This document shows, in pieces, positions 47,301 through 50,300 of a stretch of DNA of 64,000 bases. Within the stretch, counting starts at the first letter, position 1. The number at the start of each line of letters is the position of its first letter. The position numbers are program-made. Origin of the DNA: Podarcis tiliguerta (lineage: Eukaryota); the NCBI GenBank assembly GCA_965153285.1, contig OZ229114.1. One strand, given 5' to 3'.

Positions 47301-50300
47301 AGAGCGAATGCTAGGGCACCCCGCCCCCCCCAGGACACGCATAGGGAAAGGTTAGGTTGTAACCCAAATGCCAGCGCTTAGGTGCCGCCTGTCCCTTTGC
47401 AAACGGGGAAATGCTTCTTTTAGTTTTAACAGCTCCATCCGGATCTCTCGTGATTAGGACTGGACACTATCTGCATCTTCCCGCTTAGGAAATTTGCCCA
47501 TCCTAAATTTCCTCGGACGGACGGGTCCCCTTTCATTGGCGCCCCCAAAAGAAGCCCACGCAAGTTGGCAAAGTGTGGGATAGATCTCGGAGCAATTGGT
47601 AAACGTCCTGATTTTCAGGACCTTTTGGTTTAAAGTCATTCCAAAAATATGTAATTACTCTTTTTGAGACAGACAGACAGAGAGAAACCTGCAGCAAAAA
47701 CGCCCACACAAATGTGACTAAACTGCAGTATTAAAAATTATTCTTTTCAGTATGGGGTCTTTGCTTGCGTTGCGCTATGCAAAATTCCCATCACCAACCT
47801 CCCCGTTCAAGGAGTCCACGTGTTTTGATTTAACCGGATAGTAGATCAGATTGCTACAAAAAAGTTGATCTATTTGATCCAGTGTGCCCCCCCCCCCCAA
47901 GTGCAGGCAGGCCTTGGCTGAGGATCTAACTTTGATCGAGAGAGGGAGAGGGAGAAAGATGGATGCCTCCACAGTCTAGCTGTTCCAAGGATCGCGGCAG
48001 CTGCCTTGAAAATGGGCAGGCTTCACCTGGGACTACGTCCCTCTGAGCTGAATGGTACTTACCGGTACGTCTGAGCAAACCTCTTTAGGCTGAAGCAGCG
48101 AGGCTCTCTGGAAGCTTCAGCCTCGCCGCAAATGCGGAATAGCAAAGAGCGTTTAGGAGTCAAGGCACACCGCTTGCAGCTACACCCTGAAATGTAAAGG
48201 CGTTATAAATATTTAGCTGTGCCTTAAACTACCCCCTTCCTTTCTAACTGTTGATTTGTTTTCTTTCTTTCCCCCTCTCAACGCCCCAACGTTTTGCAGA
48301 GTCCACAGAGGGTATGTATTTTTGTGCTTTTTTGGTTTTACTTCTACTGTCACTCCGAATTTATTCCTTTTGGTATTAAACCACCCAAGGTTCCGCTTCG
48401 AAGAGATTAATAGGAAGGCTGCCTAAAACAAACAACCAAACAAAAAACAACTCAAGCCAAACTAAAGTGTCTTAATGGTTACAAGAAGTTGCCCATATAC
48501 GAGTTACAATGAACTGCATTCTGCTCCTTCTACAAGTAACTTAAATAACAACTGATTGTAACAGAATTCCTTTTGCTTCCATGGATACTTCCACACATCT
48601 ATAATATTTAGGGTAGCCTCCATCCCCCCCCCTTTTTTTTTTAAGTCCTGTTTGCACTGGAAATTCCTGCTTTGTCATCCCAGCTCAGAATTTTCAGATT
48701 TGGAAAATGAACTCAGGTCCCGGAAAGTTTATGCCATCCTAAAATATTTTAGCCTTTGAAGTTCACGGGTCTCTCTGTTGTTTTCGCCTAGACTGCTCTT
48801 TCCGCCGTTCGGATTGGAAGAAAATCGGATTAAGCTGGTGCCGTAAACTCGGCTGCTTGAGAACCTCAAAGGTTCCGAGCGCGTCGTTTTTTGCGCATTT
48901 GGGTGGGGTGCTGCGGGCATTAAACCCTTTGCGTTGGGAACGAACGCAAATGAGGAGGAAATTTGGGCTTCTTTTGAAAACGAACGAACTAACTTAAATT
49001 CTGTTTCTTTCCTCTTCTCCCGTTCTGCTTTCAGAATGAAAGACGTGAAGAAGAACAACATCTTCGCCCAGTTCAGGAAGAACGACCGCGACAAGCAGAA
49101 GCTCATCGAGACGGTGGTGAGGCAGCTGCGAGGCTTGGTGAACGGGATGTCCCAGCACTCCTGAACGCCGGGCGTTTTTGGAGACCGGCGGGCGCAGGCC
49201 GAAAACTAAGCCTGCGTCTCCCCGGTTAGGGTCCTTGCTCCATGGACAACTGGAAAAGATGCTGTGAAAGGGACCGGCCTATGGAAACAGCCGGAGAGAA
49301 CCTGAGCGTCTGCACTGCTGTCAATTAATGCTATCTTAACAACAACAACTTGTAAAAGGAAAACAAAACAAACCACACACAGACATACATTAGTAGGGGT
49401 GGAATAGGGCTGTATATTTACCAAGGCAAAATGCCAAATTGTACATGCAACAGTGGGATTGTAAATAACTTTCTTTGCGGTCTGCGGGCAATGCCTCAAG
49501 ATTCCCCCCTCCCCTTTTCCAAATGACTTGGTGGGGGTGAGATTGCCACGCAATCCGCCTGTGCTGCTCCCTACACTAACCCCGAGGTCATGTTTCAAGG
49601 AACTTTTTCTGTTTCAATAGTTGCCTGTCTCTCTAGATATAAATATAAATATATAATATATATATTTACACACACTCTCCTGTATTATTTGTAAATTATT
49701 AGCCTTAAGTGATCCAACAGGTTTTCTATACCAGATTTTCTTCCTTCTTTCTTTTCTTTTCTTTTTTTGTAGTGGGGGCAAAAAAGGAGAGGGTTTTCTT
49801 TTTTTTGTAGAAGCCTTTCCAAACTACCTGAATCAAAACTCCGGCCTTGGTGGTCTTTGAACAACTGGACTTTTCTCGGGTATTTGAGCGACGGGACTTT
49901 TATATACAATTCTTAAACCCCCCGCGGCGGCGCCCCCCCCCCCAGTTTCCTCTGCCTGCGTAAGGGATAAGGCAGCGCGATGCCAATGTTGTGCGTGTAG
50001 TTGTGTAGGTAGGTCTGTGTGTGTCCATCTGGGTGTTTCTAGGACTAGCTATTCCCCACCCCACTCCGTTCCCCTCAGTTTTCAACTTCTGCACTGGAGC
50101 AGCCTCGTTCGAAACGCAAAGCGAATGTATCCTAAATTCCAAAAAAACCAAATGAACCGAGGGACTTGCATCAAGAATGTATCTTTCTTTCCTTCTTTTC
50201 ATGCGCTCCGTGTATTAAGTTATTTGGACAGTCCCGAATACAGTAATATAAACCTTACCCTCCCTTTGGTGTGGCTTGTTTCATTTTTTTTCTAATGGGG

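What the first reader, a model, noticed from the sequence alone, without database searches (positions are those of the whole stretch)
48240..48320. 12-nt microexon (VHRG) in the last intron of EXOC6 with strong neural-microexon-like signals
Seen: consensus branch point ttCTAAC, an extended pyrimidine tract, TGC directly before the AG, exon AGTCCACAGAGG, donor GG|gtatgt. The phase 2/2 fit gives LLEK-VHRG-MKD. Established: 3-27-nt frame-preserving SRRM4-dependent microexons are enriched in vesicle-trafficking genes and are often missed by annotation. Together with the 30-nt cassette this implies up to four C-terminal EXOC6 isoforms. Whether this event is already catalogued in other vertebrates cannot be checked here.
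Basis: partly seen in the sequence, partly recalled or inferred. Interest (0 to 1): 0.7.

Follow-up and report, generated by a model that had tools for sequence, protein, structure and literature searches.

The report
Known conserved 12-nt EXOC6 microexon
This is a real four-amino-acid microexon near the end of the lizard EXOC6 (exocyst Sec15) gene, but it is already annotated in related lizards and catalogued in human and zebrafish, so it is an ordinary find.

Summary
At 48300-48311 (+) the 12 bases AGTCCACAGAGG sit between a CTAAC branch site, a pyrimidine-rich tract ending TGCAG, and a GTATGT donor. They fit phase 2/2 between EXOC6 exons ending at 47217 and starting at 49035.

The signals alone are not unique: 10 of 5767 AG..GT pairs on this strand score as well. 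Protein evidence settles it. Searching with the last exon alone found 16 of 116 named EXOC6 cluster representatives with a 4-residue insert at LLEK^MKD. The inserts are VHRG, IHRG, VHKG or VYRG, in squamates, a turtle, a bird, a marsupial, placentals and a salmonid. Podarcis, Lacerta and Zootoca models carry exactly LLEKVHRGMKDV.

The window is lacertid-like, not human. Published tables already list the exon as VastDB HsaEX0023471 and DreEX0031112. In human it is retina-enriched and MSI1-activated with almost no SRRM3/4 response. In zebrafish it is listed as neural and falls in srrm3 mutants. It adds four residues at the end of the Sec15_C domain.

Verdict: real, already known, low interest. 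The regulator in lizards is open.

The parts
47105..47217 (+). Penultimate coding exon of EXOC6 (LLDLFMVWDWSTYLADYGQPSSKYLRVNPTTALALLE + AA of the split Lys codon), followed by donor gtgagt
   Evidence: It is 100% identical to the Podarcis muralis, P. raffonei and Lacerta agilis EXOC6 models and 97.4% to Zootoca. It matches Pfam Sec15_C profile positions 312-347 of 348.
48244..48248 (+). Consensus branch-site pentamer CTAAC (branch A at 48247, 52 nt before the acceptor G)
   Evidence: This is a sequence match only; branch-point use was not tested. Passages of PMC12871342 report median predicted branch-point distances of 45-47 nt for neural microexons against 34 nt for other exons.
48249..48299 (+). 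AG-free, pyrimidine-rich 3' splice-site region ending TGC-AG (TGC 48295-48297, AG 48298-48299)
   Evidence: In the 100-nt fold the first 39 nt (48236-48274), the 5' part of this region, are predicted unpaired, and the fold is no more stable than shuffles (z = 0.07).
48300..48311 (+). 12-nt alternative microexon AGTCCACAGAGG, phase 2/2, encoding V-H-R-G after the restored Lys
   Evidence: The peptide LLEKVHRGMKDVKKNNIF is present in Zootoca X2, Podarcis muralis X1 and Lacerta agilis X1 among others. Of 116 named representatives, 16 carry a 4-residue insert at this junction.
48312..48339 (+). Donor GTATGT followed by a U-rich run (ATTTTTGTGCTTTTTTGGTTTT)
   Evidence: The donor matches the consensus at 7 of 9 positions. 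The role of the U-rich run was not tested.
49035..49164 (+). Last coding exon of EXOC6 (A + MKDVKKNNIFAQFRKNDRDKQKLIETVVRQLRGLVNGMSQHS + TGA)
   Evidence: It is 100% identical to Zootoca EXOC6 isoform X2. It matches no Pfam family. It is predicted as a terminal helix, residues 797-823 of P0001.
8440..8469 (+). 30-nt cassette exon (NNNNDHAAMS), the second alternative element of the C-terminal half
   Evidence: It is 100% identical to P0001 residues 659-668. It is present or absent among the lizard isoforms. It falls in a predicted low-confidence loop and in a gap relative to Drosophila Sec15.

Best explanation
The 12 bases at 48300-48311 are a genuine, anciently conserved, alternatively spliced microexon of EXOC6, the Sec15 subunit of the exocyst. 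They are the lizard orthologue of the exon catalogued as HsaEX0023471 in human and DreEX0031112 in zebrafish.

Shown: the sequence and frame; the identical peptide in annotated isoforms of the closest lizards and 4-residue inserts in five other vertebrate groups; and inclusion and skipping isoforms within one species.

Taken from the literature for other species: inclusion is restricted to the nervous system and retina. Zebrafish tables list it as a neural microexon that falls by 32 PSI points in srrm3-mutant eyes. In human it is retina-enriched and switched on by MSI1 overexpression.

Inferred for this lizard: the exon is skipped in most tissues because 12 nt is too short for exon definition. 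It is included in neurons and/or photoreceptors when a tissue-specific activator helps U2 snRNP assembly on the long, unpaired, UGC-containing branch-point-to-AG region. I rate SRRM3/4 as the main activator in the lizard at about 0.5, because a UGC is present, the branch distance is long and there is no downstream UAG cluster. I rate MSI1 at about 0.3.

At the protein level, inclusion adds V-H-R-G right at the end of the Sec15_C domain. The insert lies inside the predicted helix 769-789, about one extra turn before the linker and the C-terminal tail helix. That would shift the tail relative to the Rab-binding domain. The functional consequence is not known and is inference only.
For: Sequence anatomy.

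Last-exon search: the best hit is EXOC6 isoform X2 of Zootoca vivipara at 100% identity.

Junction census: 16 of 116 named representatives carry a clean 4-residue insert (13 VHRG, 1 IHRG, 1 VHKG, 1 VYRG), 1 is irregular, 95 skip the exon and 4 have other upstream sequence.

Cluster of P0001: of 13 listed EXOC6 members, 9 carry VHRG or VHKG, 2 skip it and 2 end before the junction.

Isoform-level indels: in the 29-sequence alignment the only clean cassette-like blocks in the C-terminal half are the 10-residue cassette and this 4-residue block.

PMC9303857 Dataset S1: EXOC6 HsaEX0023471, 12 nt, retina PSI 39.08, other tissues 1.67, neural 3.65.

PMC9303857 Dataset S6: MSI1 dPSI +10.8 in HEK293 and +82.15 in HepG2.

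PMC6952364 supplementary file 3: PSI 0 in HepG2 control, 61.3 with MSI1, 76.4 with MSI1 plus PTBP1 knockdown, 29.6 in retina, 1.43 in brain cortex.

PMC9303857 Dataset S10: zebrafish PSI 67-77 in heads and eyes; at 5 dpf, srrm3 mutant 40.9 vs wild type 73.3.

PMC12626424 supplement: DreEX0031112 labelled MIC_Neural and paired with HsaEX0023471.

Protein position: Pfam and the AlphaFold model with mean pLDDT 82.1.
Against: No RNA evidence from this species could be examined. The database isoforms are computed models, so their reality rests on the annotators' transcript support, which I did not see.

The signals alone are matched by 9 other sites on this strand.

Against SRRM3/4 as the activator: in human, SRRM3 gave dPSI 0, and SRRM4 gave 1.25, 0.52, 1.23, 0, 1.35, 0 and 10.63 in seven cell lines. 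In zebrafish srrm3 mutants the exon is unchanged at 48-72 hpf (+10.5, -1.2, -8.9) and drops only at 5 dpf, when the paper reports photoreceptors degenerating. A TGC near an AG is common (26.7%).

Against MSI1 in the lizard: there are 0 TAG in the first 100 nt and 1 in 200 nt downstream, against a window mean of 2.56 per 200 nt.

That HsaEX0023471 lies in the last intron rests on its length, on the mammalian isoforms with the insert and on my recollection of the gene's coordinates. No human sequence was handled.

The structural statement rests on a model whose confidence falls to 66 in the block 781-790 and 58 in 791-800. The skipping isoform was not modelled.
Confidence: 0.85

Rival explanations
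1. The exon is real but in the lizard, as in human, it is essentially a photoreceptor exon. High Musashi-1, together with low PTBP1, would drive inclusion, and SRRM3/4 would play little part.
For: Human data: retina PSI 39.08 vs neural 3.65. MSI1 overexpression gave dPSI +82.15 in HepG2 and +10.8 in HEK293, with near-zero response to SRRM3/4. An independent table gives PSI 0 rising to 61.3 with MSI1, 76.4 with added PTBP1 knockdown, and 0 in every listed ENCODE knockdown including PTBP1 alone. The late drop in zebrafish srrm3 mutants (5 dpf only) could reflect photoreceptor loss.
Against: The lizard intron has no UAG cluster downstream: 0 in 100 nt and 1 in 200 nt against a background of 2.56 per 200 nt. 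Passages of PMC6952364 describe UAG enrichment within 200 nt of the 5' splice site for MSI1-activated exons. Zebrafish tables list the exon as neural, with PSI 67 already in 24-hpf heads, so photoreceptor restriction is not ancestral to all vertebrates.
Confidence: 0.3
2. The exon is real but in lizards it is included broadly or constitutively. The skipping forms would be minor, so there would be no tissue switch.
For: Most listed lacertid models include it: 9 of the 11 listed members that reach the junction. Zebrafish whole heads and eyes show PSI 67-77.
Against: Skipping isoforms are annotated in the same species (Zootoca X3, Rhineura X7). The zebrafish tissue row has four higher values (92.7, 47.7, 28.1, 20.1) and nine values of 13.3 or less, though I did not see the column labels. 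Human non-neural tissues average 1.67. Counts of computed isoforms say nothing about abundance.
Confidence: 0.12
3. It is not a real exon: a chance juxtaposition of splice-like signals that annotation pipelines propagated.
For: Nine other sites on the + strand score as well on a crude signal score. All supporting proteins are computed models.
Against: The insert sits at the same junction, with nearly the same four residues, in squamates, a turtle, a bird, a marsupial, placentals and a salmonid. Measured PSI values are published for human and zebrafish from RNA-seq, including induction experiments. None of the other nine signal-only candidates corresponds to an indel in the aligned isoforms.
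Confidence: 0.02

Closest known systems
VastDB events HsaEX0023471 (human EXOC6, 12 nt) and DreEX0031112 (zebrafish exoc6, 12 nt), as listed in the supplements of PMC9303857 and PMC12626424
   Same: Same gene and same length. The two events are paired as orthologues in the PMC12626424 table. Mammalian and salmonid EXOC6 isoforms carry the 4-residue insert at the same LLEK^MKD junction as the lizard.
   Different: This is a lizard copy with no expression data. Regulation differs between the two catalogued species: human is retina-enriched and MSI1-responsive, zebrafish is listed as neural and srrm3-sensitive at 5 dpf. Which pattern the lizard follows is unknown. That the human event lies in the last intron was not checked on sequence, because no human sequence was handled.
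Annotated EXOC6 isoforms of lacertid lizards: Podarcis muralis X1 (XP_028585614.1), Lacerta agilis X1 (XP_033005164.1), Zootoca vivipara X2 (XP_034994020.1)
   Same: They carry the identical junction peptide ALALLEKVHRGMKDVKKNNIF. The window's penultimate exon is 100% identical to the Podarcis and Lacerta models, and the last exon is 100% identical to Zootoca X2. They also contain the 30-nt cassette.
   Different: Nothing of substance. The window's exon is what these models already describe.
SRRM3/SRRM4 (eMIC)-dependent neural microexon programme of vertebrates
   Same: The length is 3-27 nt and the frame is preserved. The host is a vesicle-trafficking gene. [quoted passage not shown] The zebrafish orthologue is listed as a neural microexon with dPSI -32.3 on srrm3 loss.
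   Different: The human orthologue hardly responds to ectopic SRRM3/4 and is low in brain. The zebrafish effect appears only at 5 dpf.
Musashi-1-activated photoreceptor-specific exons (PMC6952364, PMC4991804) and the retina-enriched microexons ('RetMICs') of PMC9303857
   Same: The human orthologue is on the list of 75 RetMICs and is one of the MSI1-responsive ones. The host gene fits the vesicle-transport and cilium theme described there.
   Different: The lizard downstream intron lacks the UAG cluster described for MSI1 targets. The zebrafish orthologue did not appear in the part of the zebrafish RetMIC sheet that I read, and the single occurrence of exoc6 in that file lies in a later part.

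Membership tests
EXOC6 / Sec15 gene (host gene) | Exons encode the Sec15 C-terminal domain | tested here: met
   Searched exon by exon against Pfam. Exons at 2924-3103, 15002-15142 and 47105-47215 match Sec15_C positions 181-241, 243-288 and 312-347 of 348, with E-values 2e-17, 9e-13 and 2.5e-5. The last of these scores 24.2 bits, below the whole-protein cut-off of 28.3, as expected for a fragment.
EXOC6 / Sec15 gene (host gene) | Closest database proteins are EXOC6 orthologues rather than another family | tested here: met
   833 of 834 candidates have E <= 0.001, and the top hits are named exocyst complex component 6. The exons are 97-100% identical to lacertid EXOC6 models. Whether EXOC6B has an equivalent exon was not tested.
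Conserved alternative cassette microexon (3-27 nt, frame-preserving) | Length 3-27 nt, canonical AG/GT borders, frame kept and no stop | tested here: met
   12 nt, cAG|...|GTATGT, phase 2/2, reading K-VHRG-M.
Conserved alternative cassette microexon (3-27 nt, frame-preserving) | Both inclusion and skipping forms exist in one species | tested here: met
   Zootoca X2 vs X3 and Rhineura X3 vs X7. These are computed isoform models, not reads.
Conserved alternative cassette microexon (3-27 nt, frame-preserving) | Conserved across vertebrate classes | tested here: met
   Protein level only. A 4-residue insert is present in 16 of 116 named representatives, from squamates, turtle, bird, marsupial, placentals and salmonid. 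Of 32 distant Sec15 homologues (51% identity or less), 30 have no insert at the site. Intron and exon DNA conservation could not be tested, because no eukaryotic genome collection was on hand.
Conserved alternative cassette microexon (3-27 nt, frame-preserving) | Junction reads in this species | not testable with these tools
   No transcriptome data for the source organism are available here.
SRRM3/4-dependent neural microexons | [quoted passage not shown] | tested here: met
   TGC at 48295-48297 and CTAAC 52 nt upstream. This is weak evidence: 26.7% of all AGs in the window have a TGC within 19 nt.
SRRM3/4-dependent neural microexons | Neural-enriched inclusion | not testable with these tools
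   Unknown for the lizard. From the literature, zebrafish is labelled MIC_Neural, and human neural PSI is 3.65 vs retina 39.08. So the feature is met in fish and not in human.
SRRM3/4-dependent neural microexons | Inclusion depends on or responds to SRRM3/4 | not testable with these tools
   Literature only, and mixed. Human ectopic SRRM3 gave dPSI 0, and SRRM4 gave 1.35 or less in 6 of 7 lines and 10.63 in SH-SY5Y. Zebrafish srrm3-mutant eyes gave -32.3 at 5 dpf but +10.5, -1.2 and -8.9 at 48, 60 and 72 hpf.
Musashi-1-activated photoreceptor exons | [quoted passage not shown] | tested here: not met
   There are 0 TAG in 100 nt and 1 in 200 nt downstream of 48311. The window mean is 2.56 (sd 1.70) per 200 nt. 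The criterion is taken from passages of PMC6952364.
Musashi-1-activated photoreceptor exons | Retina-enriched inclusion and induction by MSI1 | not testable with these tools
   Met for the human orthologue in two published tables. No data exist for the lizard.

The most novel reading that the evidence does not exclude
An ancient EXOC6 microexon may have changed masters during vertebrate evolution. It would be broadly neuronal and SRRM3/4-sensitive in fish, and photoreceptor-biased and Musashi-driven in human. The lizard copy has a UGC at the acceptor, a long unpaired branch-point region and no downstream UAG cluster. That would place sauropsids on the fish side and date the switch to the mammalian lineage. 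The extra helical turn it adds at the hinge between the Sec15 Rab-binding domain and the C-terminal tail helix might tune exocyst-Rab coupling for neuronal or ciliary membrane delivery.
Probability: 0.3. Interest if true: 0.4.

Novelty: already known. Interest (0 to 1): 0.15.

Why it matters
For the scan, this is a good positive control. A reader working from raw sequence alone correctly called a 12-nt exon, its frame and its pairing with a second cassette.

Biologically it adds little. The exon is in the gene models of the same lizard family and in published microexon catalogues for human and zebrafish.

Two things remain open. First, no paper I could find discusses this exon in its main text, so its effect on the exocyst is unstudied. 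Second, the published human and zebrafish numbers disagree on tissue pattern and regulator, which makes it a possible case of regulatory rewiring of a conserved microexon.

Tried and rejected
**Short query.** I used the 42-aa last exon instead.

**Joined sequence.** I read the junction in the database proteins that the single-exon search returned.

**First structure run.** This used 29 near-identical vertebrate sequences and gave mean pLDDT 46.3, with the C-terminal half below 50. It was unusable and I discarded it. The second run, with 32 distant homologues added, was used.

**Solved structures.** Only Drosophila Sec15 2A2F, which ends at P0001 residue 747, before the junction, and yeast Sec15 5YFP/6VKL, with no significant alignment at the tail. 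No solved structure shows the insertion site.

**Literature that gave nothing.** MicroExonator supplements (PMC7821500): Exoc6 in 0 of 7 files. PMC4991804 supplements: one gene-expression row only, and file 11 was not searched. The EXOC6 mentions in the main text of PMC6952364 concern an Exoc6b oligodendrocyte exon, a different event.

**Other readings of the locus.**
- Rfam found 0 families in the whole window.
- No tandem repeats lie in 46000-50500.
- The last intron matches nothing else in the window, so there is no sign of a repeat-derived exon within this window.
- RNA folding of 48236-48335 is no better than shuffles (z = 0.07), so I propose no structural element.

**Not done or not possible.**
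- No eukaryotic genome DNA collection is offered, so intron conservation stayed unchecked. The closed collections and genome contigs (bacteria and archaea) would not bear on this.
I infer their meaning from Figure 1's legend.
- Files 13-17 of PMC9303857 were not searched.
- Supplements of bioRxiv preprints are closed and may hold further tables listing this exon.
- Whether EXOC6B has an equivalent exon was not tested.
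Full report
**What is in the sequence**

- The penultimate coding exon of the gene runs from 47105 to 47217. It ends ...CTG GAG AA and is followed by gtgagt.
- In the 1.8-kb intron that follows, CTAAC lies at 48244-48248.
- After it comes an AG-free, mostly pyrimidine stretch that ends TGC-AG at 48295-48299.
- The 12 bases AGTCCACAGAGG occupy 48300-48311.
- The donor is GTATGT at 48312-48317, followed by a U-rich run.
- The last exon starts at 49035 (A ATG AAA GAC ...) and stops at 49162-49164.

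Both introns split a codon after its second base. The first base of the microexon and the first base of the last exon are both A, so the Lys is kept and V-H-R-G is added.

The window holds one run of 212 N in an upstream intron, which I left alone.

**Is it more than chance?**

On signals alone, only moderately. I used a crude score of my own: pyrimidines at -27..-4, Y at -3, and matches to MAG|GTRAGT.
- On the + strand, 10 of 5767 AG..GT pairs spaced 3-27 nt do as well.
- Three of those also have a branch consensus, a nearby TGC and a length divisible by three.
- On the - strand, 2 of 5457 pairs pass the first filter.
- Within the last intron it is the only one of 110 pairs that passes, among 27 that would keep the frame without a stop.

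A TGC close to an AG is common: 26.7% of 4256 AGs have one within 19 nt, and 2.9% are directly preceded by TGC.

**What decides it**

I then read the junction in the database proteins that came back.
- The best hit is exocyst complex component 6 isoform X2 of Zootoca vivipara, at 100% identity.
- Of the 120 listed cluster representatives, I set aside 4 that are unnamed.
- Of the 116 named ones, 16 have a clean 4-residue insert between LLEK and (M/I)KD: 13 VHRG, 1 IHRG, 1 VHKG and 1 VYRG.
- One more (Balaenoptera ricei X1) has an irregular NVTCRVHRG, 95 skip the exon and 4 have unrelated upstream sequence.
- The carriers are squamates (Zootoca, Rhineura, Hemicordylus, Varanus, Sceloporus, Anolis, Sphaerodactylus), a turtle (Mauremys), a bird (Manacus), a marsupial (Sarcophilus), placentals (Equus, Phoca, Leopardus, Herpailurus) and a salmonid (Salvelinus).

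The 90% cluster of the Zootoca protein has 46 members, of which 15 were listed.
- Of the 13 listed EXOC6 members, 9 carry the insert, 2 skip it and 2 end earlier.
- The carriers include Podarcis muralis X1 and Lacerta agilis X1.
- The window's penultimate exon is 100% identical to the Podarcis and Lacerta models and 97.4% to Zootoca.

So the window comes from a lacertid-like lizard. I do not take it for human.

In a 29-sequence alignment, the only clean cassette-like indels in the C-terminal half are the 10-residue NNNNDHAAMS block and this 4-residue block. The 10-residue block is encoded at 8440-8469 and matches at 100%. All four combinations of the two cassettes occur among the listed lizard models.

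Of 32 distant Sec15 homologues (51% identity or less), 30 have nothing at this site. The insert is therefore a vertebrate addition at a conserved LLEK motif.

**What is already published**

Four full-text searches found no paper that discusses this exon in its main text:
- exoc6 + microexon gave 2 papers, both on circular RNAs by title and abstract.
- exocyst + microexons + SRRM4 gave 0.
- exoc6 + Musashi gave 6 papers, 5 listed.
- exoc6 + photoreceptor + alternative splicing + exon gave 2 papers, 1 listed.

The exon is, however, in supplementary tables.

*Human, PMC9303857.*
- Dataset S1, sheet hg38_RetMICs, lists EXOC6 HsaEX0023471, 12 nt. Mean PSI is 39.08 in retina and 1.67 in 25 other tissues (maximum 12.9). 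PSI is 3.65 in 9 neural samples.
- Dataset S6 gives dPSI +10.8 (HEK293) and +82.15 (HepG2) on MSI1 overexpression.
- The same table gives 0 for SRRM3. For SRRM4 in seven lines it gives 1.25, 0.52, 1.23, 0, 1.35, 0 and 10.63.

*Human, PMC6952364.* Supplementary file 3 agrees independently. The PSI values are:
- 0 in control HepG2;
- 61.3 with MSI1;
- 76.4 with MSI1 plus PTBP1 knockdown;
- 0 with PCBP2;
- 0 in every listed ENCODE knockdown;
- 29.6 in peripheral retina, 1.43 in brain cortex and 7.4 in skeletal muscle.

*Zebrafish, PMC9303857 Dataset S10.* The table (row, header) lists exoc6 DreEX0031112, 12 nt:

| Stage and tissue | srrm3 mutant | Wild type |
|---|---|---|
| 24 hpf, heads | – | 66.99 |
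| 48 hpf, eyes | 77.3 | 66.8 |
| 60 hpf, eyes | 69.5 | 70.7 |
| 72 hpf, eyes | 68.2 | 77.1 |
| 5 dpf, eyes | 40.9 | 73.3 |

*Zebrafish, PMC12626424.* The supplement passages label the same event MIC_Neural and pair it with HsaEX0023471.
- They give 86.46, -32.34, NO_REG, 13.84 and 6.85 in columns whose headers I could not read.
- From the legend of Figure 1, I infer that NO_REG means no neural enrichment in human at the dPSI >= 15 threshold.
- A tissue row reads 92.7, 47.7, 28.1 and 20.1, then nine values of 13.3 or less.
- A developmental row rises from 0 to about 75-79.

That the human event is this same junction is an inference. It rests on the event's length, on the mammalian isoforms with the insert, and on my recollection that the coordinate lies about 1.6 kb from the gene's 3' end.

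**How it most likely works**

Shown: a conserved cassette that is both used and skipped.

From the literature in other species: use is confined mainly to neural tissue (fish) or retina (human).

Inferred for the lizard: a 12-nt exon cannot be defined across the exon. It therefore depends on an activator that assembles the 3' splice-site complex on the upstream intron. The lizard copy has the architecture described for neural microexons:
- The consensus branch site is 52 nt from the AG. PMC12871342 reports median predicted distances of 45-47 nt for neural microexons against 34 nt for others (passages).
- There is a UGC in that region.
- No stable structure is predicted there (z = 0.07, first 39 nt unpaired).

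It lacks the downstream UAG cluster described for Musashi targets: 0 TAG in 100 nt and 1 in 200 nt, against a window mean of 2.56.

On that basis I favour SRRM3/4 over MSI1 for the lizard, at about 0.5 against 0.3. The human data argue the other way. The zebrafish srrm3 effect appears only at 5 dpf, when the mutants' photoreceptors are degenerating.

**Position in the protein**

The penultimate exon ends at position 347 of the 348-position Pfam Sec15_C profile, and the last exon matches no family. The Drosophila Sec15 crystal structure 2A2F stops at residue 747 of the lizard-type protein, short of the junction at 778.

The AlphaFold model was built on 50 sequences, with mean pLDDT 82.1 and pTM 0.63.
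- It places residues 779-782 inside a helix spanning 769-789, followed by a short linker and a terminal helix 797-823.
- Block confidence is 92 for 771-780, 66 for 781-790, 58 for 791-800 and 86 for 801-820.

The insert would then add about one helical turn at the hinge between the domain and the tail. This is a prediction of moderate confidence, and the skipping form was not modelled. That the Sec15 C-terminal domain binds Rab11 is recalled knowledge, not from a call. Any effect of VHRG on that binding is speculation.

**Comparison and verdict**

The finding is the lizard orthologue of a microexon that is already annotated in the same lizard family and already catalogued in human and zebrafish.
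- It meets the tests for a conserved frame-preserving cassette microexon.
- Membership of the SRRM3/4-dependent set is supported in fish, contradicted in human and untestable here.
- The one Musashi feature I could test on the lizard sequence was not met.

Novelty: already known. Interest is low (0.15). The residual interest is that human and fish differ in tissue pattern and regulator, and that nobody appears to have studied what the four residues do.

**Surroundings**
- The window carries the last seven coding exons of EXOC6, counting the two cassettes.
- CYP26C1 follows downstream on the same strand, at about 55245-63135.
- No Rfam family matches anywhere in the window.
- No tandem repeat lies near the exon.
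- There is no second copy of the last intron in the window.

Noticed in passing
window 8440-8469 (+): A 30-nt cassette exon (NNNNDHAAMS) with a good acceptor and a gtaagt donor. It is 100% identical to residues 659-668 of Zootoca EXOC6 X2 and is present or absent among lizard isoforms. It lies in a low-confidence loop of the model and in a gap relative to Drosophila Sec15.
   Followed up: partly
window 55245-63135 (+): CYP26C1 lies downstream of EXOC6 on the same strand. Five exon-sized matches are 88-98% identical to Podarcis CYP26C1 isoform X1.
   Followed up: partly
cluster of P0001: P0124, P0126: Two 631-aa proteins named cytochrome P450 26C1 isoform X1 (Podarcis raffonei, P. muralis) are listed as members of the 90%-identity EXOC6 cluster. 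They align only to the CYP26C1 part of the window, not to the EXOC6 exons present in it. This may be a clustering oddity or a trace of a read-through model. It is unexplained.
   Followed up: partly
P0086 (Balaenoptera ricei EXOC6 isoform X1), C-terminal junction: It has an irregular junction, LLE-NVTCRVHRG-IKD, instead of LLEK-VHRG-MKD. The gene model may use different splice sites around the same microexon.
   Followed up: no
P0177 and P0215 (unnamed distant Sec15 homologues), alignment A2 at the LLEK site: Two of 32 distant homologues carry their own short inserts at exactly this site: 6 residues (ALHLPR) and 4 residues (QVHL). This could be alignment noise or independent insertions at the same hinge.
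   Followed up: no
window 12106-12117, 21466-21468, 35797-35801, 35870-35880, 35875-35880, 37174-37184, 46710-46714, 57144-57156, 62317-62340 (+): Nine other short AG..GT intervals score as well as the real microexon on the crude signal score. None corresponds to an indel in the aligned EXOC6 isoforms. They are useful as a false-positive baseline for calling microexons from signals alone.
   Followed up: partly
window 48318-48339 (+): A U-rich run lies directly after the microexon's donor (ATTTTTGTGCTTTTTTGGTTTT). By recollection, this is the kind of site bound by U-rich-binding splicing activators. It was not tested.
   Followed up: no
intron between the 30-nt cassette and the exon at 15002: One run of 212 N, either an assembly gap or masked. 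I left it alone.
   Followed up: no
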